From positions 32,001-96,000 of the IMG/VR virus record IMGVR_UViG_3300009671_000009: 64,000 nucleotides of DNA. One strand, given 5' to 3'. Below are positions 40,781 through 59,400 of the stretch, piece by piece. The notes under the pieces were generated by a model that had not been told where the DNA came from, did no database searches, and saw nothing but the letters and a program-made list of their open reading frames with translations. A program made the position numbers and the translations under genes. The stretch's first letter is position 1. Every line of letters begins with the position of its first letter. Origin of the DNA: a virus. Lineage: Duplodnaviria > Caudoviricetes.

Positions 40781-41144
40781 GTTTTTAGAAAAAACAGCAG
40801 GATATCTTCCCTCTAACTTTGGCAGAATGATACGAAATCCTTTGTTAAAAGGGCAAGATATTTCTGCTGTTATTAAATTCTCAATAGGCTACGTAGAAAG
40901 ATCTTGGATAATGTGGCAGGAAGCCGCAAAAAGATCAAAAGCAACCAATCGGGAAAAAGCTCTCTTCCGCGCTGCTACTGTATACGTGTTGGATATGGTA
41001 ACCGATGCTATGGACGCCGAAGACAATAGTCCATCAGATATGTGTTACGCAATTCTTCTGAAGCAGTGCCTACTAGATATTCTATCTGTAATAGATAGCC
41101 TAGACCTTTCTAAAACGGAGAGTAAAGATGACGCAGAATCTTAA
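40748..41144 (+). CDS. hypothetical protein
   Basis: ORF bridging recA and the helicase; start uncertain. Confidence 0.5.
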
Positions 41145-42495
41145 TTCAACACAAGAAGCAGCTGTTAACATAAAAGAAGGGCCAGTGCTAGTATCGGCAC
41201 CTCCAGGGTCAGGAAAATCAAGAATTATAGTACACAGAGTAGCGAGACTAATAGAATCAGATTCAGATCCAGAGAAAATAATGGTGGCTACCTTTACCAG
41301 AAAGGCAGCTACAGAACTTAAAGAGAGAGTAAGCAAAATGGTAGGTTCCGACTTGAAAAAAATGTCTTGCGGAACCTTTCATAGTATATGCTTGAATCTA
41401 CTTAAAAACTTTTCAGACCGCGACTGGCAAGTAATTACTGAAGCCAAGGCGCGAGATGCCGTGTCCATAGGATTAGCACAAGAATGCTTAGACGTTAAGA
41501 CACGAGATATCTTGTTAGATATTTCATATCTGAAGGCTTGGATGATAAGTCCATACGAGGCAATGCTTAGAGCAAAAACCCCTGTGGAAAAGAAGCTTGC
41601 CAAGGTTTATCTAAATTACGAAAATATTCTACAGGAAAACAACTATTTAGATTTTGACAATATTATTATAGAGACTCTTCGGTTGTTTAACAATTATAAA
41701 AACCGCAAGCAAGTCCAAGGAATGTTTGAACATGTAATGGTAGATGAATATCAAGATGTTAATAAGCTACAAGGGGTATTGCTCAGTACTATATCTGAAA
41801 AAAGTAAAAGCGTATTCGCTGTTGGTGATGCATCTCAGGCAATCTACGGATTTATGGGGGCTAACCTAAATGAATTCAGAACATTTCCAACCAGGTATAG
41901 TGGCTGTAAACCAGTATTCCTTGATCTCAACTACCGCTCAAACAAAAATATAGTAGATGTATCTAATTCATTAGTGGTTGGAAGAACATCTAGTTTAATG
42001 AAATCTTTCAATGAGGATGCAGGAGAAAGAATAAAGGTATGCATTGCTGACTCTGTTGAAGACGAGGCATACAAACTAGGAAAGATTATCCCACAGTTAA
42101 GCGGCATCACAGCTATACTTGTCAGAGCAGCTTGGCAACTTCCTCCAATCTTATCAGTACTAGATAAAGCTAAAATAAGATATCGGGTCTTAAGCGATAG
42201 TTCCAGATCAGTTGAGGAAGATGCAGAAAACTATGGAGTCAATGTCTATGTATTGACAATGCATGCCGCAAAAGGACTAGAATTCGATAACGTTATTGTA
42301 GTTGGCCTTGAGGAAGATGTGCTTCCGTATAAAGACGCACTAGACATTGAGGAAGAAAGAAGACTTTTTTATGTTGCAATGACGAGGGCAAAACATAATC
42401 TTTTCATATTTGCATGTGTCAACAGAAATGGAAGAATTTCAAGATTGTCTAGATTTCTTTACGAACTTCCTCGTAATTTAATCGAAAAGATATAG
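41128..42495 (+). CDS. UvrD/PcrA-like SF1 helicase
   Basis: APPGSGKS, TFTRKAA, VDEYQD, VGDASQAIYGF, NYRS, TMHAAKGLEF, EERRLFYVAMTRA. Confidence 0.92.
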   Translation: MTQNLNSTQEAAVNIKEGPVLVSAPPGSGKSRIIVHRVARLIESDSDPEKIMVATFTRKAATELKERVSKMVGSDLKKMSCGTFHSICLNLLKNFSDRDWQVITEAKARDAVSIGLAQECLDVKTRDILLDISYLKAWMISPYEAMLRAKTPVEKKLAKVYLNYENILQENNYLDFDNIIIETLRLFNNYKNRKQVQGMFEHVMVDEYQDVNKLQGVLLSTISEKSKSVFAVGDASQAIYGFMGANLNEFRTFPTRYSGCKPVFLDLNYRSNKNIVDVSNSLVVGRTSSLMKSFNEDAGERIKVCIADSVEDEAYKLGKIIPQLSGITAILVRAAWQLPPILSVLDKAKIRYRVLSDSSRSVEEDAENYGVNVYVLTMHAAKGLEFDNVIVVGLEEDVLPYKDALDIEEERRLFYVAMTRAKHNLFIFACVNRNGRISRLSRFLYELPRNLIEKI

Positions 42496-42504
42496 GAGGT
42501 CATA

Positions 42505-42927
42505 ATGTTCTATACCAAGAAGAAAGAAGCCGCGTTAAATGCCAAGCTGTCAAATCTAACTCTGAGTGTTCAAAAGATAGAAAGTATGGTTAGGAATTCA
42601 TTTAACGCGATAGCAGAAGAATCGAAACTTAATAATACATACCTTAAAGAGCTAGCTAAAGTTGTTTTAGATATTAATACGATTCTTACAAATGTTAAAG
42701 AGACCGTTTCTTGTATCAAGACAGATGTAGAAGATACATTCAACAGACTTGATGATACGTCTAAGTCTATTACAGATCTAACAGCAGTAATTAATGTCCA
42801 AAGGATGATCGACATGGCTAAGTTTGCTAATGAACTTGAAAGACTTATCAAGGTTGTTGATATTCTTAATGATACAATTCATGAGAATATCCTAGATGGA
42901 GCTACAAGTCTCGGTGATATTACATGA
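42505..42927 (+). CDS. coiled-coil hypothetical protein
   Basis: heptad pattern, SD GGAGG. Confidence 0.6.
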   Translation: MFYTKKKEAALNAKLSNLTLSVQKIESMVRNSFNAIAEESKLNNTYLKELAKVVLDINTILTNVKETVSCIKTDVEDTFNRLDDTSKSITDLTAVINVQRMIDMAKFANELERLIKVVDILNDTIHENILDGATSLGDIT

Positions 42928-49660: not shown

Positions 49661-50007
49661 TGGCCAAGCTTGCAAGAATAGAATACAGAGATGATACTTT
49701 TGTAAATGCTACATATCTACTGGATATTCCAAAAGATATTCCGTGGAAACTTGTAGCAACAATCGTTAATCCTATTTATGATTTTGATACACTTCCAAGA
49801 AAACTCAATGGAATGGTAAACGAACATGAGCTATCGTGGTTTGTGAATGATATCCGACGAGTGTATGTAGGGGTGTCTAACATAACAGAAGAAGGAGCTA
49901 GGCTTCCAACCACAGCCTTAACACTACAGAGAATATTCGACACTATCTGTGATAAGTTTTCTGAATTTCACAAACTGTATTTGGTTTGTGAGAAAGCATT
50001 CAAATAA
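49660..50007 (+). CDS. hypothetical protein
   Basis: overlapping TAATG stop/start. Confidence 0.55.
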   Translation: MAKLARIEYRDDTFVNATYLLDIPKDIPWKLVATIVNPIYDFDTLPRKLNGMVNEHELSWFVNDIRRVYVGVSNITEEGARLPTTALTLQRIFDTICDKFSEFHKLYLVCEKAFK

Positions 50008-50008
50008 T

Positions 50009-50135
50009 GGGGTAGATCTAGGATTCGATGGGGTTCGGTGACTGCGTGTAGATGAAAAATGCCCTTGGAGAAAACATCGATAGTAGCCATGTAGCTGGAC
50101 TTTAGACTGGGGTTCGACTCCCCACTACTCCACCA
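50009..50135 (+). ncRNA. ssrA: miniature tmRNA-like RNA (tRNA-Ala-like domain, ~40-nt internal loop)
   Basis: 5' GGGGTAGATCTAGGATTCGATGGGG, 3' AGACTGGGGTTCGACTCCCCACTACTCCACCA; G3:U70 pair, A73, helix-2 pairing. Confidence 0.75.
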
Positions 50136-50152
50136 AATAATAGGAGTTCAAT

Positions 50153-50365
50153 ATGTACGAATATACTATAACTATATCTTTAACTCTCACTCTTCCAGAC
50201 AACCCCACATTTGAAGACATCAGTAGAGCAGTTGAAGGCGATCCAGATAATGCCAGATATAAAATTTTTGAAAACTCAACGGAGAATACAAAGGTTGGAA
50301 GAGCAGAAACTCCAAACCCTTATTATAGGAACAAATCGGAATGTAGCCCAACGGCAGAGGCATAG
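50153..50365 (+). CDS. hypothetical protein (runs into tRNA-Leu)
   Basis: SD AGGAG. Confidence 0.45.
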   Translation: MYEYTITISLTLTLPDNPTFEDISRAVEGDPDNARYKIFENSTENTKVGRAETPNPYYRNKSECSPTAEA

Positions 50366-50412
50366 AGCTTAAGCCTCTAAAAGTGTGAGTTCGAATCTCA
50401 CTATTCCGACCA
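50337..50412 (+). tRNA. tRNA-Leu(TAA), short variable loop
   Basis: TAGAG-CTTAAGC-CTCTA, A73, CCA. Confidence 0.75.
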
Positions 50413-50420
50413 TAATATTT

Positions 50421-50456
50421 AGGCAAGCGTGAGTTCAAATCTCACTCCGCCTACCA
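50421..50456 (+). pseudogene. tRNA 3'-half remnant (T-arm + acceptor + CCA)
   Basis: GTGAG-TTCAAAT-CTCAC-TCCGCCT-ACCA with no D or anticodon arm. Confidence 0.55.
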
Positions 50457-50457
50457 T

Positions 50458-50532
50458 GGGCCGATAGCTGAGATGGATTAGCGCCTGCCTGAAGAGCAGG
50501 AGAGGTCGGTTCAATTCCGACTTGGCCCACCA
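50458..50532 (+). tRNA. tRNA-Phe(GAA)
   Basis: CCTGC-CTGAAGA-GCAGG, CCA. Confidence 0.9.
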
Positions 50533-50627
50533 TCTATGGAGATGATTTATTATTATTTGTGCAATTTGATTTTCGTTTTGACCATTGGTACGATGGTTCT
50601 AAATGTCCTGGATTTAAGGAGAAAAAA

Positions 50628-51023
50628 ATGCCAACAAAACAAGTTATTGTTATTAGAAAAGATTTAAATATGCGTAAGGGCAAAATCGCATCTCAGGCAG
50701 CACATGCTTCTATCAAAGTTTTCTTTGATAGAATGGAAAAAGCTCCTTGGGTTTTTCCCGAGCCTTGCTATCTAACAGTAGTTACCGAAGCAATGGCAGA
50801 ATGGATAAATGGATTATTCACTAAGATTTGCGTTTATGTAGAATCAGAAGAAGAACTATTGAATCTTTATAACAAAGCCAAAGAATCAGGAATTCCTTGT
50901 TCTTTAATTCAAGACGCAGGTCTTACCGAATTTGGAGGAGTTCCTACTTATACTTGTATCGCAGTAGGCCCAGACTATAATGAACGAGTAGATGAAATAA
51001 CAGGAGGTTTACCGCTCTTATGA
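50628..51023 (+). CDS. pth2: peptidyl-tRNA hydrolase Pth2
   Basis: [52 protein letters not shown]. Confidence 0.92.
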
Positions 51024-51628
51024 ACTTAGTCCCGATGGTAGTTGAACAGAAAGGTCAAGGAGAACGTGCCTATGATATCTTCTCCAGGTTATTAAAAGAT
51101 CGAATTGTATTTATTAACGGCCCAATCTCTATCCAAATGAGCGACTTAATTGTAGCTCAGTTATTATTTCTTGATTCGGAAGAACAAGGGAAGCCTATTA
51201 ATGTATACATTAACTCCCCAGGCGGGGAGATTGTAGGTGGCATGGCGATTCATGACACAATGAAACTGGTAAAGTCGCCAGTTCATACAACCTGCCTAGG
51301 ACTAGCTGCATCCATGGGCGCATTTCTTTTAGCTTCAGGCGACAAAAGATTTGCAACTCCCAATGCAGAAATAATGATACATCAACCAAGTGGTGGCGCT
51401 GAGGGCCAAGCATCTGACATTCTCATTTCAGCCAAGCACATTCTTCAAAACAAAGAAAAGCTGAACAAACTATTATCAGATTATACAAATCAACCACTTG
51501 GACAAATAGAGCGCGACGTTGAGAGAGACTACTGGTTAACACCAGAGGAAGCAAAAGAGTACGGAATTATCGATGAAATTTTAATTCCTCAACCGAAGAT
51601 AGATTATAGAAAGTTTCAAATAAAATAA
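51020..51628 (+). CDS. clpP: ClpP protease (copy 2)
   Basis: [30 protein letters not shown]. Confidence 0.93.
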
Positions 51629-51629
51629 T

Positions 51630-51706
51630 GGGAGCGTAGCCCAGAGGCAGGAGGCAAATGTCTTAGAAGCATTTCAGGGTGAGTTCGAATCTCGCCGCTC
51701 CCACCA
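51630..51706 (+). tRNA. tRNA-Leu(TAG), short variable loop
   Basis: AATGT-CTTAGAA-GCATT, A73, CCA. Confidence 0.8.
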
Positions 51707-51721
51707 TTATATCATCTAAAG

Positions 51722-52200
51722 GTGATTACAACGAGAATAAAATATACAAAAGATATATTAGATAGACTAGCAGCTGAATGTACGTCTATGAGACAACTAT
51801 TAACAAAACTAGGTCTTGCATTCACTGGTGGAAACTACTCTCATCTTAAAAAGAGATTAGCCCATTTCAATGTAGATATATCACATTTTAAAGGACAGTC
51901 TTGGGCTAAAGGATTGCCTGGTAAGAAGGGTAAACCTTCTGATTATTTAATTTACGGTAAGGAAGTAAAGTCATCCAGGATTAAATAATATCTTATAAGA
52001 GACGGATTGAAAGAACACAAATGCGAGTCTTGCAACTTGTCTGATTGGTTAGGCAAACCTATACCTCTAGAACTTCACCACATTGATGGAGATAGAAAAA
52101 ATAATTGTATTGATAATTTACAACTTCTTTGCTTGAATTACCACGGACTGACAAACAATTATTCTGGAAAAGCCAATAAAAAGCCAGTTAAACATTGGGA
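51722..52200 (+). pseudogene. HNH endonuclease interrupted by in-frame TAA
   Basis: TAA at 51986-51988; frame continues YLIRDGLKEHKCESC..LELHHIDGDRKNN. Confidence 0.65.
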
Positions 52201-52413
52201 GATTGTTATGACCAACCTGGAAACTATCATGCAAAATAAAGGACTCGTAGAGACCGCAGTATTTAAGTATCTTGAAACAGAATACTGTCCTAAAGATTTT
52301 GGACTCATGGGAAACCCGAGTACATGTATGGGAAAATGTATTCCGTGTTGGCTAAAAGCTTTAGAATTAAAAGAATACCCCGAGGATAATTATAAACCAA
52401 AGAGGTGACAATC

Positions 52414-52701
52414 ATGCAAGAGCTGAATATAATCATAAGAAATGAGTTCACACCACAAGAAATGGATCTTATACATCATTTGTTTGGCGATGAGCCCGTG
52501 GTTTTTCTTGATGAGAAAGCTGATATGTATGATTGTTTAATCATGCTAGGGGTCTTCCCGTCTAAAGGCGAAGCGCGGAAGAACTGGAAACGTACTGGGA
52601 AAGAAATAACTCCAGGCTACAATGAGTTCCGTGGCATAGGCAAATCAAAGAAGGCCCTCTTTATATGGAATCCAGTAGATACACGAGGTGTGGCGCAATG
52701 A
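52414..52701 (+). CDS. hypothetical protein
   Basis: ORF with GAGGTG SD. Confidence 0.55.
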   Translation: MQELNIIIRNEFTPQEMDLIHHLFGDEPVVFLDEKADMYDCLIMLGVFPSKGEARKNWKRTGKEITPGYNEFRGIGKSKKALFIWNPVDTRGVAQ

Positions 52702-53231
52702 GCACAAAACGTTATAATTGCTGGGACAATCCCGATAACAGACAAACAAAAGTATTGGAAATCTTATCCAAACGTACAGGAGTAGACACTACGACTGTAC
52801 ATAAAGTACTACGAGCTCACCATGACTACTATATGGATGAGATTGAAAGAGTTCTTGGTAATAACAACTACGGAGACGTACATGAAAACAATTGATGTTT
52901 TGCATATCACACCAGAAGAATATCAAAAATATCTTCAAGTAGAGAAAGAACGTGCCGAATATAAATTCTGGCACGATCAACTAAAATATCAGGACGATCA
53001 GTTTATAATTGCGCTTAAGAAAATACACTCCTATGATGGCGACAGTGAAGATGCTCTAAAACTAAAAGAAATTGCCGCAAAAGTTCTGTGGGATACTATA
53101 TGGGGTTTATACTAAGGAGAATGCGATAATGTTCTGGATAGGTTTAGTTATAGGAATTATAGTCGCTCTGTTGGCAGTTGCAATTGTCATTGTTAAGGCA
53201 TTCAGTGGCAGTATAAGATGGTAACATATAT

Positions 53232-53280
53232 GGGAGTATAGCAGAACGGCATATGCGCCAGCTTGAGATGCCCTGGACTA
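53232..53280 (+). pseudogene. degenerate tRNA 5'-half (Leu-like)
   Basis: GGGAGTATAGCAGAACGGCATATGCGCCAGCTTGAGATG; no T-arm. Confidence 0.4.
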
Positions 53281-53483
53281 CTTCGGTCTACTTACAGAAG
53301 AAGATAGGCATTCGGCTTTGAATGATGTTGTGGCCACCGCAAATCTCTATTCTAAACTAATAGATCTAAGCTTAGGAGAAACATGAGTATAGCATTATTA
53401 AAAATAATAGGTATATCAACTATGACACTTGGAGTCATACTATTAGTAATCGGCGCAATAAAATTAAGCAAGGTGTAATAAGA

Positions 53484-53570
53484 CGGGTAGTGGTGGAATT
53501 GGCAGACTCGCAGCGTTGAGGGCGCTGTGTTCGCAAGGACGTGTGGGTTCAAGTCCCACCTACCCGACCA
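53484..53570 (+). tRNA. tRNA-Leu(GAG)
   Basis: CAGCG-TTGAGGG-CGCTG, long variable arm, CCA. Confidence 0.9.
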
Positions 53571-53605
53571 TATAAAAGTTTAGGAGCAAACTCCTAATTA
53601 AATCA

Positions 53606-53726
53606 GAGGAGGAGAATGCCATGAAATTGTAGATTGGCTATACTTAGGTATGTAGACCACCTCCCTAGTGATTTTAATTTGCTGTGTTAAACAAAAAATT
53701 AAAACTAAAGGGAGAAATGAATTATG
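53606..53726 (+). promoter_or_regulatory. candidate translational attenuator: leader ORF MKL*IGYT*VCRPPP** overlapping an SD-sequestering hairpin
   Basis: SD GAGGAGGAG, ATG 53621, in-frame TAG at 53630, 53645, 53666; CTCCCT/AGGGAG and TTTTAATTT/AAATTAAAA pairing covers the SD of ATG 53724. Confidence 0.55.
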
Positions 53727-54065
53727 TCTATAAAGAAAGAATTCAAAAACTACGTATCTGAACAAATTAAGTCAAACAATTCCTGGTTCGTTAGAGCCAA
53801 TGCTGCCCGCATCGAATCGATGTGTCGGGCTGCGATCAATAGATCATCCTATGGATTTCATTGTGATGACAAACAAGGTCAACCTTCAAACTATCTTGTA
53901 AAAGAAGGCAAGGTTATCTTCATTGAACAAAAGCCAAACACAGAGATTGGTGATGGATGCTGCCACCCGCTCTATCGCTCAATCTTCAACAGAGCTAATG
54001 ACATCATTACTGATGCCAAGAAAAGCTTTGTACCTTCTATGGCTTCGGAGGTAATCAACCAATGA
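53724..54065 (+). CDS. hypothetical protein
   Basis: 113 aa, translationally coupled (ATGA) to the next gene. Confidence 0.6.
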   Translation: MSIKKEFKNYVSEQIKSNNSWFVRANAARIESMCRAAINRSSYGFHCDDKQGQPSNYLVKEGKVIFIEQKPNTEIGDGCCHPLYRSIFNRANDIITDAKKSFVPSMASEVINQ

Positions 54066-54343
54066 AGTTATATGTACTAATCGATGAGCAGTATGATGCC
54101 AGCTATCGTGCAGTACAGGGTGCCCATGCGGTTGCGGAGTATTTGCTCCGCAATCCTGGGTCTTCCTGGCAAAATCACACACTGGTTTTTCTAAAGACTC
54201 CGTGTCTTGAAAGATGGACAGATCGTCTTCGTGAAAGCGATAAAGATTTTACATCGTTTGTAGAGCCAGATGTTGGTTACAAAATTACCGCCATCGCTTG
54301 TCTTGATGACGGGTAGATTTTTAGAAAGGTAAAACTAAATTAA
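54062..54343 (+). CDS. small Pth2-like protein (TAG at 54314 just before an expected C-terminal motif)
   Basis: KLYVLI..AVQGAHAVAE..F.EPD...ITAIA; after TAG the frame reads IFRKVKLN. Confidence 0.6.
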
Positions 54344-54512
54344 TGTCAGGACACTGGATAACATTAAGAAAACATCATAAAACATATCTAAGTAGCGAAA
54401 AAGATTATATATCTCCATTAATAGGAGTGATATTTGTAGCACTTATCTTGATCTTGCCATTCGTCATGGCAACATTTTTAGGTAAGTAACACGATTAATG
54501 TGATACAGTTTA

Positions 54513-54712
54513 TGGCGGCGGCGTGGATTGGACACGCAAGGAGAACAGCCCGAATTCCCCTGTGGTCAAGACTGTCAACTCCTAAAAGACGATGGCTACC
54601 TAGCCCGTAAGGGGGCTGCAATCAGCTTAATAGCGTTGATCACTACGTAATGTGGGCAAACTCGTCAATAAAAGGTTGGAATCCCTTAGCCAGAATCGAA
54701 GCTGACCCGCCA
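54513..54712 (+). ncRNA. 200-nt tRNA-like structured RNA
   Basis: TGGCGG/CCGCCA closing stem, D-like GCGTG-GATTGGA-CACGC, internal hairpins, T-loop-like motifs. Confidence 0.5.
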
Positions 54713-54737
54713 ATATTTATATTATGGAGGAAAGTAA

Positions 54738-54989
54738 ATGGTTATCTTAGGAAGTAAAGTGAAAGACACACTAACTGGATTCTCTGGTATTGCAACAGCA
54801 AGAACAGAGTGGCTCTATGGGTGTGCTAGAATTTCAATCGAGCCGACTGAGCTAAAAGACGGTAAACCCATCGAAGCCCAATGGTTTGATGAACAGCGCG
54901 TTGAGGTAATTAAAGAATTGGCTCCGACTGTCAGCAAAGATAGTAGCGCTACCAGTGGTGGGCCACAAAGAGATCCTCATTACCGATAA
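54738..54989 (+). CDS. hypothetical phage protein
   Basis: LGSKVKD..TGFSGIATAR..WFDE; SD GGAGG. Confidence 0.65.
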   Translation: MVILGSKVKDTLTGFSGIATARTEWLYGCARISIEPTELKDGKPIEAQWFDEQRVEVIKELAPTVSKDSSATSGGPQRDPHYR

Positions 54990-55007
54990 CAAAAAGGAGT
55001 GATTGAA

Positions 55008-55598
55008 ATGGGCGAGATGGCTGATTATTATTTATCAAGTGAAGATGAAAGTATCTACGATGAGCCTCCATATGCTGGTTCGTCAGGCCCTTGCCCAAGA
55101 GATCCCTCGCGGTCATTCCCTTTCTCTACCAGAGAAGAGCCTAGTCGTGCAAAACCAGATCCTCTGGCGCTGTTAAAACAATTAAGACCTATTGTTGTAG
55201 AATCTATAGACTACGCCCAACGTGAGGGTGGCAGTACAGCATACGAAGAGATGTTGTTAAAACAAATAGATACACTGATTCCAAGAAAGGAAGAAACCTT
55301 TCACTGTCCATGTGATTTCACAAAGAGGACAAAGCCCACTGGGGTAAGTGACAAGCAACGGTACGCCATCGAGGTAATTGAAGAGATTACTGGAGATGAA
55401 TTTGAAGGCACTACAAGCAAGGAAGCATGGCTCTTTATTAAAAAACACGAAGGAGCCTATACAGCATATAAAAAGAATAAGAAGTCACCAAGCTGTCGTC
55501 TGAATCGAGTGAGCACATTCGATATTGCAGAAGATCCTAGTGACGATGGTTGTTTTAATGATTACAACGATGATTATCATTTTGATGATATCTTTTAA
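55008..55598 (+). CDS. hypothetical protein
   Basis: SD AAGGAG; MGEMADYY. Confidence 0.6.
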   Translation: MGEMADYYLSSEDESIYDEPPYAGSSGPCPRDPSRSFPFSTREEPSRAKPDPLALLKQLRPIVVESIDYAQREGGSTAYEEMLLKQIDTLIPRKEETFHCPCDFTKRTKPTGVSDKQRYAIEVIEEITGDEFEGTTSKEAWLFIKKHEGAYTAYKKNKKSPSCRLNRVSTFDIAEDPSDDGCFNDYNDDYHFDDIF

Positions 55599-55673
55599 GG
55601 TCAAGTAGTTCAGTGGTAGAACGGAAGCCTCTAAAACTTCATGTCGTGGGTTCAATCCCCACCTTGACCACCA
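55599..55673 (+). tRNA. tRNA with CTA anticodon (amber suppressor-type)
   Basis: acceptor GGTCAAG/CTTGACC, D-arm, GAAGC-CTCTAAA-ACTTC, T-arm GTGGG-TTCAATC-CCCAC, A73, CCA. Confidence 0.8.
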
Positions 55674-55679
55674 AAACAT

Positions 55680-55713
55680 GTCAGAGTAGCTCAGTCGGTA
55701 AGAGCGGCAGACT
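55680..55713 (+). pseudogene. tRNA 5'-half truncated at the anticodon by the reverse-strand HNH gene
   Basis: GTCAGAGTAGCTCAGTCGGTAAGAGCGGCAGACT abuts the stop of the minus-strand ORF. Confidence 0.55.
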
Positions 55714-56311
55714 AGTTCAGTTGAAATATTCCATTGTCGTATTCCCAGTGACAATTAGGACATAGTGCCATTAAATTGTTTATATCGTTTATTTCAACAA
55801 TTAGAGCATCGTTACTGAATAAAGATACAGGTTTAATATGACATACTTCAGCGAAATGTGAGTAGCCGCATCTTATACACACTAAAGGCTTGCCGCTTGC
55901 TTTATATATTCTATATGCATGTGCTCTAATTATCTTTCTAGCCCGTTCGTATTTGTGTTTATTTAGCATATCGCCTTTTGTTCTATACGGCATTGTGCTA
56001 TGCAACAAACAATCGTCACACTTTTTGTATTTATATGTTCCAGAGTATTGTATTTCTTTACTACAAGTACTACAATATTTTTTAACTTTGTTTCTTGATA
56101 CCCCAGCGTTATTAAAAGACGCAGCACAACTCTGAGAACAAAAATTTTTTCTCTTTACTGCAGCAAGTTTTTGACCTTCCTTTGGTATCATAGGTTTACC
56201 ACAGTTTTTACACAATTTGGGATTTTGCAGGTAAGCGTCTCTTATCTTCTTTGCTTTAGCTTTACCTCCAAAATGCCCACTTTTAGATTTTCCTATTAAC
56301 ATTATAACCAC
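55712..56311 (-). CDS. HNH endonuclease with zinc fingers (only substantial minus-strand gene)
   Basis: CIRCG..EVCHIKP..NDINNLMALCPNCHWEYD. Confidence 0.85.
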   Translation of the reverse strand: MVIMLIGKSKSGHFGGKAKAKKIRDAYLQNPKLCKNCGKPMIPKEGQKLAAVKRKNFCSQSCAASFNNAGVSRNKVKKYCSTCSKEIQYSGTYKYKKCDDCLLHSTMPYRTKGDMLNKHKYERARKIIRAHAYRIYKASGKPLVCIRCGYSHFAEVCHIKPVSLFSNDALIVEINDINNLMALCPNCHWEYDNGIFQLN

Positions 56312-56399
56312 CTCACTGTTATTATATGGTGGTTACTTGAACATGATAGTCAAAATATCAAATAATGTTTCAAGACGATGTTCTATTAAATAGTTAAAT

Positions 56400-56656
56400 A
56401 GCTTGGGTGGCGGAATAAATAGCTAGGCGCATGCGTGCAAATAGCTAGGCTTGTAATGCCAGTAGACGCTTAAACGGTAGACAGGATAGGGGAAGTTGCC
56501 CTCTAATTAGGTGGGAGCGTGGTGCAAGCTCCATAATTGCCGAGAAACGATAACCGTGCGCTTTTGAGTACCACACACTCCTCGCAAGAGTAGCAGCATA
56601 GTAGCTTGCACGGTTGAAATGCCTGTCATGTGAGGTGAAAATCCTCACCCCAAGCT
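56400..56656 (+). ncRNA. ~255-nt expanded tRNA-like RNA
   Basis: AGCTTGGG/CCCAAGCT stem, Leu-type D-arm GGCGGAAT..GTAGACGC with insert, GACAGG/CCTGTC-closed multi-hairpin, T-arm GTGAGG-TGAAAAT-CCTCAC. Confidence 0.55.
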
Positions 56657-56774
56657 TATAATTTTGCTGGCAAAACACACAAAGGGAGCGGTTAGCTATA
56701 GTAGACCACAAAGTGCCGCGGTGATGATGGAACCCTAAAGAGCAAGCCGTGGGCCAGCATTTCTTTTTTTAAAG

Positions 56775-57035
56775 GTGATTTATTTGAATCTTAAACCAGA
56801 CATAAACTTTCTGTTTGATGTAGATGATGTGGAATCGCTTAGAAATCTGTATGATGATCTTGTAGATGATCTTAGCAATCTATATCGTCCTATAGGAAGT
56901 GACTGGGCTAAAGACAAAAATAAAAGGCTATGGGATATCATTCATCCCTACTTGGTGATTCGTGGATACAAATATTCAATAGAAAACAAGGTGTGCCAAA
57001 TATACAAGAAGTTATACGAAACTAACTCTATATAA
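56775..57035 (+). CDS. hypothetical protein
   Basis: 86 aa ORF. Confidence 0.5.
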   Translation: MIYLNLKPDINFLFDVDDVESLRNLYDDLVDDLSNLYRPIGSDWAKDKNKRLWDIIHPYLVIRGYKYSIENKVCQIYKKLYETNSI

Positions 57036-57175
57036 AGAGAGGGTATTACAATGAACGAACTTATAAATACAGTAGTAGCAAGCGTTCTAGGAGGACTTTG
57101 TTTTGTAATACTATTAAAGCTTATCGATTGGGCTGAAGTTTTTGTATGCTGGGCTCGTCATAAGTTACATAAAGA

Positions 57176-58411
57176 TTGAGGGTGATTAAAATTCCTGGTG
57201 TAAGCGTAAAAGATTTTTTAATTGATATTCCTGCTGTTCAAGCAACTACCAAAAGAAGAGCCGCTCCGAAGAAAGATCCAGAGTACTCGTTAGTGCTGCA
57301 GAACAACACTGACTTTGTAATAAATAGAAAAACCAAAACAACCGATAGAACCTTAGCTTACTTAATAAGCCAAGGCTTATTTTATGTCCGAGATAATAAA
57401 ACTCAGAAGGTAGAACCGTTATCGCTGAGGAACTATAAAATGTTCTTCGCTCCTGTATATGATCATCAGTTAAGTTATCTAACAGAAGTTAAGTGGTGGA
57501 GTCACTCGCCCCGCCGAATGGAGTCCAAAGCAATAAAGATCATCGGCGATCAATCTATGCAGAAGATGTACCAGCACGGGCTATACGTTGAAAGCCATCA
57601 AGCAGCTAATTGGAAAGAAAACTTTGAGAACAACACAAAACTGTTTCAATATTGTTACGATGTATGTAATAAGTCTGATGTTAACAGATTCGAATTTGAG
57701 AACATTATGGCTTTTGCAACCAAGATTGAACAGAAAATCAACTTCAATAATGCAAAGCATTTTATAGATTCAGTAGGAGAATCCTCAATTAGGTTTAGCC
57801 TAGGAACTGTATACTACCGTGACGACCAGAAGAACTTAATTGGAGCCATAGATACATATAACCTTGACTTCAGCAGATGTATTGAATATTTACTCTTTGA
57901 TCTGTACACTCAAGGTATCTTGATACTGAACACTGCTGTTCTCAATGACTACATTGATTATCTGAGGATGCAAAACAACATGTACGGCAAGATTAAAGAT
58001 AAGTATCCAGCCTATCTTAAGACCGAACATGATATTATGGCCCTAAAGATATCGACGTATGAGAAACATAAGAAGGATTTGTTGGTGTTTAACAATTCAG
58101 ATCTATTCAAGAACCTTGAATACAAGAAGGGCGACTATTGCATTTTACTTCCAAAAACATCTGCTGACATAGTCGATGAAGGAGTAAACCAAAGTCATTG
58201 TGTTGCTTCATATGTTGATAAAGTGGCCCGCGGTGAAACTCTAATTGTTTTCTTGAGAAATAAAGAGACACCAGATAAATCGTTAGTTACCATTGAGGTC
58301 AAGGATGACGGGATCACACAAGCCCGAGGGTTTGCAAATCGTGGGGTTAACGAAGAAGAGGATAAATTCATTACAGAGTGGGCGAAAGAGAAGTCTCTAG
58401 CCTACAAGTAG
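57176..58411 (+). CDS. PcfJ-domain protein
   Basis: DYIDYLRM..YP..LKTEHD..EGVNQSHCVASY..IVFLR..TIEV..QARG..N. Confidence 0.8.
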   Translation: MRVIKIPGVSVKDFLIDIPAVQATTKRRAAPKKDPEYSLVLQNNTDFVINRKTKTTDRTLAYLISQGLFYVRDNKTQKVEPLSLRNYKMFFAPVYDHQLSYLTEVKWWSHSPRRMESKAIKIIGDQSMQKMYQHGLYVESHQAANWKENFENNTKLFQYCYDVCNKSDVNRFEFENIMAFATKIEQKINFNNAKHFIDSVGESSIRFSLGTVYYRDDQKNLIGAIDTYNLDFSRCIEYLLFDLYTQGILILNTAVLNDYIDYLRMQNNMYGKIKDKYPAYLKTEHDIMALKISTYEKHKKDLLVFNNSDLFKNLEYKKGDYCILLPKTSADIVDEGVNQSHCVASYVDKVARGETLIVFLRNKETPDKSLVTIEVKDDGITQARGFANRGVNEEEDKFITEWAKEKSLAYK

Positions 58412-58640
58412 GAGGTCTTGTTGTTGTATAAAGTAAACACAATCATTATTGACTCATCAGCCGACGTGCGTGGGCTAGCTGAGCTACACCTTGACACTCT
58501 TCCAGAGTTAAATGCCCAATTATTCTTGTGGTGCTTTCCTCAGTTCAGGGGATTTGTACCAGAAGAAACAGAATACGTAACAGCAATTGCGATAGTTGAG
58601 TTGACACCAACAGCGGCTATCATGCTAGTTTTGGTATAAA

Positions 58641-58715
58641 GCGCTATAGCCTAGCGGAACAGGCACTGGTTTACGGAACCAGCAACGGCGGGTTCGAATC
58701 CTCCTAGGCGCTCCA
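58641..58715 (+). tRNA. tRNA-Arg(ACG), acceptor 5' strand apparently 1 nt short
   Basis: CTGGT-TTACGGA-ACCAG; GCGCTA vs TAGGCGC. Confidence 0.7.
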
Positions 58716-58734
58716 TTATATAAGGAGAAAATAC

Positions 58735-59400
58735 ATGCCAAAGAAAAAGAAAACGCTTCCGACTGAACACGTTGTCATTATCTTAGACAAGAGTGGCTCA
58801 ATGGGAACAGTTCGTGACGTAACAATTAGTGGCTTCAATGAACAAATCCAAACTCTGAAATCAGCAGCAGAAGAAAAGAATATCTTGCTTACAATGTACG
58901 CTTTCAATCATGCTGTAACAAAACTCTTTGAAGAGAAACCTATTGGCGAAGTCGAAGAGTTAACCCGAGATGATTATGTTCCTGCAGGGATGACAGCAAT
59001 GCTTGATGCAGTAGGCCTTGCCATTGACAACATGAAATCATATCTCGATGGTAACACCGAAGACTGTGTTTTGTTTGTCATCATGAGTGACGGCGAAGAG
59101 AACAACTCTAAAGTTCAGACATGGACTTCAGTTGCCGAGAGAATCCAAGAGCGACAAGGAACCAAAAAGTGGACATTCACTTATATGGGGTCTAACCAAG
59201 ACTTATCCAAGATTAGGGAAACCTTCCATCTGCCGAAAGATAATGTCCGTTCCTATGTTAGCGATGCCGCAGGAACAAAGAGTGCTCACACAATCATGTG
59301 TCACGGATTAAGTTCCTACATGTATCGTGGTCATGCTAGCGCATCAGCTAGTTTCTATGATGGCAACACAAAATCGGTAGACGACGAAGAAAACAAGTAA
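58735..59400 (+). CDS. vWA-domain protein
   Basis: ILDKSGSM, GMTAMLDAVG, MSDGEENNS. Confidence 0.85.
   Translation: MPKKKKTLPTEHVVIILDKSGSMGTVRDVTISGFNEQIQTLKSAAEEKNILLTMYAFNHAVTKLFEEKPIGEVEELTRDDYVPAGMTAMLDAVGLAIDNMKSYLDGNTEDCVLFVIMSDGEENNSKVQTWTSVAERIQERQGTKKWTFTYMGSNQDLSKIRETFHLPKDNVRSYVSDAAGTKSAHTIMCHGLSSYMYRGHASASASFYDGNTKSVDDEENK

What the first reader, a model, noticed from the sequence alone, without database searches (positions are those of the whole stretch)
53606..54343. Candidate stop-codon-readthrough sensor: amber-studded leader peptide gating a Pth2-like operon
Seen: a strong SD and ATG (53621) open the frame ATG AAA TTG TAG ATT GGC TAT ACT TAG GTA TGT AGA CCA CCT CCC TAG TGA (MKL*IGYT*VCRPPP**), with three in-frame ambers in 16 codons. 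The CCT CCC TAG codons form the 5' arm of a long hairpin whose 3' arm contains the SD (AGGGAG, 53709-53714) of the next gene. Established: polyproline and R-x-P-P-type motifs stall ribosomes, and leader stalling can unmask a downstream SD. Inference: normal termination at the first TAG keeps the operon off. Only when UAG is read through (phage CUA tRNA 2 kb downstream, or RF1 failure) does the ribosome reach RPPP, melt the hairpin and switch on the unknown gene plus the Pth2-like hydrolase.
Basis: partly seen in the sequence, partly recalled or inferred. Interest (0 to 1): 0.8.

Follow-up and report, generated by a model that had tools for sequence, protein, structure and literature searches.

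The report
Stop-codon-readthrough-gated phage leader switch
A 224-kb phage that uses the normal genetic code has a tiny leader gene with two built-in UAG stops. The two genes behind it are probably translated only when the phage's own UAG-reading tRNA overrides those stops, which would give such "orphan" phage suppressor tRNAs a natural target.

Summary
On its own it is not beyond chance: SD+ATG followed by two or more TAGs within 16 codons occurs 14 times in this genome, against 13 for TAA. Comparison makes it real.

- **Close relatives.** Four diverged lineages keep the SD, the ATG, the in-frame TAGs, an R-x-P-P end and a non-amber final stop. All four keep a hairpin, with different stem sequences, that pairs the Pro codons (CCUCC) with the SD of the next gene.
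- **Proof of readthrough.** The second gene has a Pth2 fold (pLDDT 97). In all four lineages it carries a conserved in-frame TAG at codon 85, followed by 8 codons with a clear coding signature that match the family's C-terminus. So UAG is decoded in these phages.
- **Wider class.** In 80 phage loci with this Pth2-like gene, 70 have a tRNA-CUA nearby. 48 have an ATG…TAG…PP-stop leader at the same place, against 0-1 in each of eight controls. 25 of 28 distinct leaders are followed by an RBS-hiding hairpin. The one locus with a tRNA-UCA has a TGA leader.

Best reading (about 0.7): a translational attenuator gated by amber readthrough. No experiment exists. I found no published natural example. 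Other agents of this scan noted the same design on other phage DNA.

The parts
53484..53570 (+). tRNA-Leu(GAG) directly upstream. This neighbour is conserved in three of the four lineages.
53606..53615 (+). Shine-Dalgarno sequence of the leader (AGAGGAGGAG). A GGAG core is kept in all lineages.
53621..53671 (+). Leader ORF. It reads M K L TAG I G Y T TAG V C R P P P TAG TGA.
53630..53632 (+). First sensor amber codon, followed by A. It is TGG in lineage L004/L005.
53645..53647 (+). Second sensor amber codon, followed by G. It is invariant in all four lineages.
53654..53665 (+). R-P-P-P codons (an R-x-P-P arrest-type motif). CCUCC within them is the anti-SD.
53666..53671 (+). Tandem final stop TAG-TGA. 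Relatives have TAA here. In the wider class the final stop is never TAG alone.
53661..53714 (+). SD-sequestering hairpin. Stem sequences differ between lineages but pairing is kept.
53709..53714 (+). SD (AGGGAG) of gene 1, paired in the hairpin.
53724..54065 (+). Gene 1, 113 aa. It has no family and no fold match. Its stop overlaps the start of gene 2 (ATGA).
54062..54343 (+). Gene 2, a Pth2-fold protein of 93 codons. It has an in-frame TAG at codon 85 (54314-54316) and a conserved 8-codon tail.
55599..55673 (+). tRNA with anticodon CUA (amber suppressor). ARAGORN's label 'Pyl' comes from the anticodon only.

Best explanation
This is a leader-peptide translational attenuator whose input is readthrough of UAG.

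**Off state.** The mRNA folds so that the Pro codons at the end of the leader (CCUCC) pair with the SD of gene 1. A ribosome that starts on the leader normally meets RF1 at UAG codon 4, or at UAG codon 9. It leaves before it touches the hairpin, so gene 1 stays shut. Gene 2 is translationally coupled to gene 1 through the ATGA overlap and stays shut with it.

**On state.** When the phage's tRNA-CUA is made and charged, it outcompetes RF1 at both ambers. Both sit in a purine-after-stop context that favours suppression. The ribosome then reaches R-P-P-P followed by a stop that cannot be suppressed (TAG-TGA here, TAA in relatives). R-x-P-P and Pro-Pro-stop are slow for peptide-bond formation and for release, so the ribosome lingers on the 5' arm of the hairpin. 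The SD of gene 1 is freed and the two genes are translated.

**Second gate.** Gene 2 needs UAG readthrough at codon 85 to obtain its conserved C-terminal tail.

**Shown and inferred.** Shown by sequence comparison: the translated frame through TAG, the hairpin, the link to tRNA-CUA, and readthrough in gene 2. Inferred: the stall, the direction of the switch, and the roles of the proteins.
For: **Four lineages.** They keep SD, ATG, frame, TAG2 (4 of 4), TAG1 (3 of 4) and R-x-P-P (RPPP, or RLPP in L004). The two indels are both 3 nt. Four synonymous third-position changes occur. Leader nucleotide identity is 80-89%, against 58-73% for the hairpin and spacer.

**Hairpin.** It refolds in all four lineages with different stems, at -17.3 to -25.9 kcal/mol and z = -2.1 to -5.4.

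**Footprint model.** The hairpin is intact with a ribosome at the start, TAG1 or TAG2. It is lost with a ribosome at R-x-P|P.

**Readthrough in gene 2.** A TAG follows 'LDDG' in all four lineages. Behind it come IFRKVKLN, IFRKLKLN, MFRKLQLS or IFKRLKLN, then a stop. Synonymous multi-base changes are present (Arg AGA/CGC; Leu CTA/TTG/CTT). The tail matches the family's C-terminus ...DDG(R/K)xFKKLKL. The 93-aa readthrough form folds with pLDDT 97 and matches Pth2 structures at TM 0.73-0.80.

**tRNA-CUA.** It is kept, with compensatory stem changes, 320 nt behind gene 2 in L002.

**Wider class, my own test on 80 IMG/VR loci with the Pth2-like gene.**
- 70 have a tRNA-CUA.
- 48 have an ATG…TAG…PP-stop leader 350-600 nt upstream. 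TGA and TAA versions, the opposite strand and the downstream region give 0-1 each.
- The 28 distinct leader DNAs contain 32 internal TAGs. All 32 are followed by a purine. Final stops are TAA 25, TGA 3, TAG 0.
- 25 of 28 have a hairpin joining the leader's end to the RBS region of gene 1.
- TAG leaders occur in 47 of 69 loci with a tRNA-CUA and in 1 of 11 without.
- The single tRNA-UCA locus has a TGA leader. The cross-table reads CUA&TAG 32, UCA&TGA 1, mismatched 0.

**Uniqueness.** This is the only SD-preceded short ORF ending in R-x-P-P in the whole genome.

**Literature.** RxPP with x = Gly, Ala, Ser or Pro is reported as arrest-inducing (PMC12992588).

**RNA libraries.** Contigs from four bioreactor RNA libraries cover the leader, gene 1 and part of gene 2 (ending at 53877-54184) at depth 18-85. 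Flanking contigs have depth 2-8.
Against: - No experiment exists. Stalling, suppression efficiency and the on/off direction are all inferred.
- Only four close lineages exist, so statistics on the leader alone are weak. Roughly 4 synonymous against 5 non-synonymous changes were counted.
- TAG1 is TGG in one lineage. There the motif is RLPP, with x = Leu, which is not among the reported arrest-competent variants.
- CCUCC is needed as the anti-SD. The Pro-Pro codons could therefore be a by-product of RNA pairing rather than a stalling device.
- TAG is an ordinary stop for 52 of 284 predicted genes, with no context bias. Suppression would extend many phage proteins, and how that is tolerated is unexplained.
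- The stop-anticodon match rests on one TGA/UCA locus.
- 32 of the 80 related loci had no leader that fits my pattern.
- RNA contigs cannot show transcript ends or translation.
Confidence: 0.7

Rival explanations
1. The leader is a plain tiny upstream ORF (MKL-stop) and UAG is never read through in it. The SD-hiding hairpin is opened by something else, such as a protein, a small RNA, temperature or RNA processing. The conserved bases behind the first TAG would then be an RNA-level site.
For: In a single sequence the TAG pattern is no more than chance. The substitution counts in the leader are too small to prove coding. CCUCC must be conserved for pairing in any case.
Against: This does not explain why ATG, TAG and PP-stop stay in one frame in 28 distinct leaders of other phages, against 0-1 in controls. 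It does not explain why the final stop is never TAG, or why every internal TAG is followed by a purine. It does not explain why the leader's stop type follows the suppressor's anticodon. Readthrough of UAG is shown for gene 2 of the same operon. No Rfam family or conserved structure was found in the leader's coding part.
Confidence: 0.1
2. Readthrough happens, but the logic is inverted or different. One version has the ribosome stalled at R-x-P-P-stop recruiting cleavage or rescue (the phage carries a tmRNA-like gene), so the message is destroyed and the operon falls when suppression is high. Another version has the element reporting host RF1 activity rather than the phage tRNA.
For: Stalled ribosomes are known targets of mRNA cleavage (for example Rae1 at SPP motifs, abstract of PMC12407103). 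A tmRNA-like gene lies at 50009-50135. Competition between RF1 and the tRNA sets readthrough, so either partner could be the variable one. No release-factor gene is present in the phage.
Against: Gene 2 needs readthrough to be completed. Switching the operon off when readthrough is high would therefore defeat its own product. The stalled ribosome would lie about 40 nt upstream of the SD and would not block it, and the folding model frees the SD. The tight linkage with a tRNA-CUA (70 of 80 loci) points to the tRNA as the variable.
Confidence: 0.12
3. After termination at the first TAG the ribosome restarts at the TTG one base downstream (53634). It then translates a frame-2 peptide (MAILRYVDHL...) across the hairpin. 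This would be a stop-restart coupling device that needs no suppressor.
For: Frame 2 is open from that TTG through the anti-SD in all four lineages (my reading of the sequences).
Against: No SD precedes the TTG. The frame-2 substitutions are mostly radical (Leu/Pro, Pro/Arg, His/Tyr), while frame 1 gives synonymous or conservative changes. In L004 the first TAG is TGG, so the stop-restart junction is lost. The class-wide signal lies in the ATG frame.
Confidence: 0.04

Closest known systems
RAPP-like regulatory arrest peptides (ApdA, ApdP, ApcA; SecM with RAGP) upstream of sec/yidC genes (PMC7897499, PMC10951233, PMC12992588)
   Same: A small upstream ORF ends in Arg-x-Pro-Pro close to its stop. 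The next gene's ribosome-binding site is hidden in a hairpin that a stalled ribosome would open. RxPP with x = Pro is reported as arrest-inducing.
   Different: Those peptides are long secretory or membrane 'monitoring substrates', released by the pulling force of the export machinery. This leader has 15 codons, no signal sequence and two in-frame UAG stops before the motif. The input is whether the ribosome can arrive at the motif, not whether it is pulled off it. Arrest has not been tested here.
ermC/cat-type translational attenuation and trp/his-type leader peptides
   Same: The position of a ribosome on a short leader decides between alternative mRNA pairings, and so the expression of the downstream gene. 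As in trpL or hisL, the leader carries several copies of the codon whose decoding capacity is being read.
   Different: The diagnostic codon is a stop codon read by a phage suppressor tRNA in competition with RF1. Failure means release, not pausing. No antibiotic or amino-acid signal is involved. No terminator with a U-run follows the hairpin, so control is translational.
prfB (RF2) autoregulation by an in-frame UGA
   Same: An in-frame stop codon early in a message reports the cell's termination capacity at that codon and sets the output.
   Different: prfB uses +1 frameshifting at CUU UGA C within the gene itself. Here no frameshift is needed, the stop is UAG, it lies in a separate leader, and the output goes through an SD-hiding hairpin.
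Stop-codon-recoded phages (TAG read as Gln, 'code 15') and their suppressor-tRNA 'code change' modules (bioRxiv 10.1101/2021.08.26.457843)
   Same: A phage-encoded suppressor tRNA is proposed to time the expression of genes that carry in-frame stops.
   Different: This genome is not recoded. Open-frame coverage is full under the standard code, and TAG ends 52 of 284 predicted genes. The in-frame TAGs found are confined to a leader and to one codon of a Pth2-like gene. The leader passes suppression on to a gene (gene 1) that carries no in-frame stop.
Engineered amber-codon leader switches (unnatural-amino-acid 'transcriptional switch', reviewed in PMC6412442)
   Same: A TAG placed in a leader peptide makes downstream expression depend on a suppressor tRNA.
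   Different: That device is man-made, built on tna/trp leaders, and acts on transcription termination. This one is natural and acts on translation initiation.

Membership tests
RAPP-like arrest-peptide regulators | Small ORF directly upstream of the regulated gene with a C-terminal Arg-(Ala/Gly/Ser/Pro)-Pro-Pro motif | tested here: met
   The leader ends in CRPPP followed by a stop. R-x-P-P is kept in all four lineages. x = Pro is listed as arrest-inducing. x = Leu in L004 is not listed.
RAPP-like arrest-peptide regulators | Demonstrated ribosome arrest at the motif | not testable with these tools
   This needs toeprinting, profiling or a peptidyl-tRNA assay.
RAPP-like arrest-peptide regulators | N-terminal export signal, with arrest released by the Sec/YidC machinery | tested here: not met
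   The leader has 15 codons and is interrupted by two UAGs. It has no room for a signal peptide.
Leader-peptide translational attenuators (ermC type) | A hairpin sequesters the SD of the downstream gene, and its 5' arm overlaps the end of the leader ORF | tested here: met
   CUCCCU at 53661-53666 pairs with AGGGAG at 53709-53714. The hairpin is kept with changed stems in four lineages and in 25 of 28 distinct loci of the wider class. A footprint model supports the switch.
prfB-type in-frame stop autoregulation | Programmed +1 frameshift site at the in-frame stop | tested here: not met
   The conserved downstream peptide lies in the zero frame of the ATG, and frame 2 fits worse.
Peptidyl-tRNA hydrolase 2 (PF01981, PTH2) | Sequence match above Pfam's threshold | tested here: not met
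   The window protein has no Pfam hit. 15 of 45 family members match PTH2, best E 2e-6. A family profile against the PDB finds peptidyl-tRNA hydrolases at E 3.8e-4 and 2.8e-3.
Peptidyl-tRNA hydrolase 2 (PF01981, PTH2) | Pth2 fold | tested here: met
   The model of the 93-aa readthrough form has pLDDT 97. Foldseek matches MJ0051, human Bit1 and S. solfataricus Pth2 at probability 1.00 and TM 0.73-0.80.
Peptidyl-tRNA hydrolase 2 (PF01981, PTH2) | Catalytic residues and hydrolase activity | not tested
   Q19, H22, N38, E68, P69 and T76 are invariant in the family. Their equivalence to Pth2 catalytic residues was not established. A regular PTH2 gene lies at window 50637-51020.
TAG-recoded phages (code 15) | Many genes with in-frame TAG, and loss of TAG as a stop | tested here: not met
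   The standard code gives full open-frame coverage. TAG ends 52 of 284 genes. Long TAG extensions carry no domains.
T-box or other known tRNA-sensing RNA | Match to an Rfam model | tested here: not met
   No family other than tRNA and tmRNA reached its gathering score in 50000-59000; below it there were only weak hits (YrlA, Plastid-ycf2), none on the leader.

The most novel reading that the evidence does not exclude
Phage amber-suppressor tRNAs in standard-code phages belong to a self-contained, widespread module of leader, gene 1, Pth2-like gene and tRNA-CUA. In this module the leader is a natural sensor of the cell's 'genetic-code state'. It turns on a dedicated Pth2-fold partner of the suppressor only once UAG is being read. 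The module, not recoded structural genes, is the primary conserved target of these tRNAs.
Probability: 0.5. Interest if true: 0.9.

Novelty: new variant of a known kind. Interest (0 to 1): 0.8.

Why it matters
Many large phages that use the normal code carry amber-suppressor tRNAs for which no target genes are known. For jumbo phage XacN1 the authors state that they could not identify genes targeted by its two CUA tRNAs (PMC5852040).

This element offers a concrete, conserved target and a testable circuit. A leader converts the efficiency of stop-codon suppression into translation of an ordinary gene, with a second amber gate inside the Pth2-like gene.

It would be the first natural counterpart of the amber-codon leader switches that synthetic biologists built by hand. 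It links arrest-type R-x-P-P leaders to a new kind of input. It also points to a Pth2-fold protein as a functional partner of suppressor tRNAs. The parts are small enough to test in a few weeks with reporters in a laboratory strain.

Tried and rejected
**Searches that found no further relatives**
- DNA similarity to known phages gave only tRNA hits.
- Protein-based locus searches with gene 1, with gene 2 alone, and with the gene 1 alignment found nothing in IMG/VR.
- Exact-pattern scans for the conserved leader core in viral and metagenome contigs returned only chance matches inside unrelated coding sequence.
- The contig of P0005 had no DNA on file.

**Gene 1**
- The fold model was poor (pLDDT 64) and had no PDB match.
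- The gene 1 proteins of the other phages form a family of their own. It is not detectably related to this 113-aa protein (phmmer found nothing, hhalign probability 0.8%).

**Structure tools**
- RNAalifold on a MAFFT alignment recovered only the base of the hairpin, because the stems do not align by sequence. Each lineage was therefore folded on its own.

**Other ideas tested**
- Genome-wide recoding was rejected.
- The long open extensions behind the TAG stops of the UvrD-like helicase and the PcfJ-like gene carry no domains.
- TAG-ending genes show no bias in the base after the stop and no shortened extensions.
- The sigma-70 promoter scan was uninformative.
- The terminator-like hairpin at 54296-54314 lies inside the readthrough tail of gene 2 and is probably incidental.
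- A TRAP-like reading of the repeated UAGs, a small hairpin within the leader's coding part, and a start-stop ATG-TAG at 53650 were considered from the sequence. They were dropped for lack of spacing, covariation or an SD.
- The tRNA-CUAs of the class are of many different types (48 distinct). The inserted amino acid could not be inferred. Resemblance of this one to a Lys(CUU) tRNA is only suggestive.
- RNA-library contigs cannot give transcript ends. Their uneven depth is reported only as a hint.

Full report
**Setting.** The window is bases 32001-96000 of a 224,466-bp virus record with direct terminal repeats. The phage uses the standard code. Open frames of at least 100 codons cover 58-100% of each 8-kb bin without any reassignment, and essentially 100% from about 136 to 208 kb. 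A simple gene call gives 284 genes that end in TAA 161, TGA 71 and TAG 52 times. The finding lies in a stretch rich in translation parts:
- 16 tRNA genes
- a short tmRNA-like gene
- a regular PTH2 gene at 50637-51020
- a tRNA with anticodon CUA at 55599-55673
- no release-factor gene

**The observation.**
- The SD is at 53606-53615 and the ATG at 53621.
- TAGs are at 53630, 53645 and 53666, and TGA at 53669.
- R-P-P-P is at 53654-53665.
- CUCCCU (53661-53666) pairs with AGGGAG (53709-53714), the SD of the gene that starts at 53724. An inner A/U stem makes a 54-nt hairpin of -17.3 kcal/mol.

Taken alone, the amber-studded frame is not special. An SD plus ATG followed by two or more TAGs within 16 codons occurs 14 times in this genome, about as often as the same pattern with TAA (13).

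**Close relatives.** Gene 1 (113 aa) has only four homologues in 5.8 billion proteins. Their contigs gave five loci that fall into three further lineages, with 87, 70 and 65% protein identity. All keep the pair of genes and the element in front of it. With x for TAG, the leaders read:

| Lineage | Leader peptide |
|---|---|
| window (and L006) | MKLxIGYTxVCRPPPx-stop |
| L003 | MKxIGYTxICRPPP-stop |
| L002 | MKxIATYTxICRPPP-stop |
| L004 (and L005) | MKWIGHTxVCRLPPWIVx... |

- The two indels are both 3 nt.
- Four changes are synonymous third-position changes (AAA/AAG, GGC/GGT, ACT/ACC, CCC/CCG/CCT).
- The rest are conservative (V/I, Y/H, G/A) or fall on the free position of R-x-P-P.
- Frame 2 is also open but takes radical changes, and frame 3 has a fixed stop.
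- Leader identity is 80-89%, gene 1 identity 70-90%, and the hairpin and spacer only 58-73%.
- Every lineage nevertheless folds into a hairpin that pairs CCUC(C) with the GGAG of gene 1. Stems differ and energies run from -17.3 to -25.9 kcal/mol.
- The one relative with a long contig (L002) has a tRNA-CUA 320 nt behind gene 2. Its anticodon arm is identical and its acceptor and T stems carry compensatory changes. L002 also uses TAG as an ordinary stop, for 4 of 21 genes.

**Independent proof that UAG is decoded.** Gene 2 was called as 84 aa ending in TAG. In all four lineages the TAG sits after 'LDDG' and is followed, in frame, by eight codons and a TAA or TGA. The tails read IFRKVKLN, IFRKLKLN, MFRKLQLS and IFKRLKLN. 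The DNA differs by synonymous multi-base changes (Arg AGA/CGC, Leu CTA/TTG/CTT, Lys AAG/AAA, Asn AAT/AAC). In 56 of 64 distinct homologues from other phages the same tail...DDG(R/K)xFKKLKL..., is part of an uninterrupted ORF.
- The 93-aa readthrough form folds with pLDDT 97.
- It matches archaeal and human Pth2 structures at TM 0.73-0.80 and probability 1.00.
- By sequence it is only a distant relative. The window protein has no Pfam hit. A family profile against the PDB gives E 3.8e-4. 15 of 45 family members match PF01981.

So 'Pth2-like' is right as a fold. The gene is itself gated by an amber codon followed by A, the same context as in the leader.

**The wider class, tested here.** An alignment of the Pth2-like protein retrieved 80 IMG/VR loci from many different large phages.
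- 70 have a tRNA-CUA, nearly always within a few hundred bases behind the gene. One has a tRNA-UCA at that place.
- I scanned the 1.5 kb upstream on the coding strand. The pattern was an ATG, an in-frame stop of one kind within nine codons, and Pro-Pro at or one residue before the real stop, in at most 32 codons. This found 48 loci for TAG and none for TGA or TAA. The opposite strand and the downstream region gave 0-1 each.
- The 28 distinct leader DNAs are very different peptides, for example MRxITYKPP, MTxIQIPPxIRGPP, MLxKRFNGLxIIRGPP and MWxVKTSPPxGNSRSPP.
- All 32 internal TAGs are followed by a purine, and 28 of them by a Val or Ile codon.
- The final stop is TAA 25 times, TGA 3 times and never TAG.
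- The layout is always leader, then 10-170 nt (mostly about 45-90), then a gene of 73-203 aa (mostly 100-170), then the Pth2-like gene, then the tRNA.
- In 25 of 28 the sequence at and just after the leader's end pairs with the 12 nt before the start codon of gene 1.
- TAG leaders are found in 47 of 69 loci with a tRNA-CUA and in 1 of 11 without.
- The locus with the tRNA-UCA has the leader MKRIxTRNRGPDNV with x = TGA. Its own stop lies in the 5' arm of an RBS-hiding hairpin.
- In a second set of 58 loci the cross-table is CUA&TAG 32, UCA&TGA 1, mismatched 0.
- Loci that my pattern missed show variants by eye, with RAPP, RGPP, RSPG or RSPD motifs, or a TAG at codon 4 of the gene itself.

**Mechanism.** A thermodynamic model with a 27-nt ribosome footprint gives the same result in all four lineages. 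The SD-hiding hairpin survives a ribosome at the leader's start, at TAG1 and at TAG2. It is lost when the ribosome sits with the Pro codons in its P and A sites. The SD is then free in the window and in L004. It is left only in weak alternative pairings in L003 and L002.

R-x-P-P with x = Pro is among the arrest-inducing sequences reported from random-library screens and mutagenesis (PMC12992588). From my own knowledge, Pro-Pro before a stop slows release. Two ambers in series make the response steep. The purine after each amber favours suppression, also from my own knowledge of context effects. The non-amber final stop holds the ribosome even when suppression is on.

The result would be a feed-forward switch. 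Once the suppressor works, gene 1 and the Pth2-like gene are translated, and the latter is also completed. What the two proteins do is unknown. The tight linkage suggests that the Pth2-fold protein works on or with the suppressor tRNA, or on the products of readthrough.

**Expression.** Four bioreactor RNA libraries hold contigs covering the leader, gene 1 and part of gene 2 (ending at 53877-54184). Two of them begin at 53591 and 53619. Their depth is 18-85, against 2-8 for flanking contigs. Contigs cannot show ends, strand or translation, so this is only a hint that the region is abundant as RNA.

**Novelty.** Full-text searches found no natural leader of this kind.
- A synthetic analogue exists: TAG placed in tna/trp leaders (PMC6412442).
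- Suppressor-timed expression of recoded late genes has been proposed for recoded phages.
- For a standard-code jumbo phage the targets of its CUA tRNAs were explicitly reported as unknown (PMC5852040).
- Notes of this scan show that other agents met the same design in at least 40 other genomes and also found no publication. I treated those notes as leads and re-derived the class-level evidence myself.

**Verdict.** Stalling, the direction of the switch and the functions of the proteins remain inferred. This lineage differs from the class in four ways:
- It has a terminal TAG backed by TGA.
- Its gene 1 is unrelated to the usual one.
- It has an amber codon inside the Pth2-like gene.
- Its suppressor tRNA lies 1.3 kb rather than a few hundred bases downstream.

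Noticed in passing
window 50009-50135: A short tmRNA-like gene of 127 nt matches both ends of the Rfam tmRNA model at 60.6 bits (gathering score 47). It may bear on how the phage handles ribosomes that read through stops.
   Followed up: no
window 50637-51020: A regular PTH2 peptidyl-tRNA hydrolase (PF01981, E 1.4e-34) lies 3 kb upstream. The amber-gated Pth2-like gene is therefore a second, divergent paralogue. L002 also has both.
   Followed up: partly
window 55680-55740: Directly after the tRNA-CUA lies what looks like the 5' half of another tRNA (acceptor, D arm and start of an anticodon arm) with no 3' half. There is a weak Rfam YrlA (Y RNA-like) hit at 55620-55738 (26 bits, below threshold).
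   Followed up: no
window 54500-54740: A 240-nt gap without an ORF has higher G+C. RNA-library contigs of three runs begin at 54518-54523. There is no Rfam family and no folding signal (z = +0.5).
   Followed up: partly
window 54125-54165: The high-depth RNA contigs of three runs end at 54122-54184, inside gene 2. This is next to a G+C-rich stem-loop (TTGCGGAG...CTCCGCAA). It may be an RNA 3' end or an assembly break.
   Followed up: no
window 41128-42924 and 57176-58636: The UvrD-like helicase (455 aa) and a PcfJ-like gene (411 aa) both end in TAG and stay open for 143 and 75 more codons. No domain was found in the extensions.
   Followed up: partly
L097:3283-4029: In one related phage the amber sits at codon 4 of a long ORF (MEHxV...) instead of in a separate leader. 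This is a direct-gating variant of the same idea.
   Followed up: no
L063, L065, L068, L074, L079, L062 (Pth2-like genes): Several other lineages also have one or two in-frame TAGs inside the Pth2-like ORF, at positions different from the one in this window.
   Followed up: partly
L035-L114, gene between leader and Pth2-like gene: The 'gene 1' proteins of most other phages form a family of their own, with the conserved core ...RHxHIAYxxLRGR..EQIE.P. It has no detectable relation to this window's 113-aa protein. In three loci gene 1 is fused to the Pth2-like domain (188-203 aa).
   Followed up: partly
window 52007-52408: An HNH endonuclease gene lies among the tRNA genes (PF13392, phrog_14736).
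   Followed up: no
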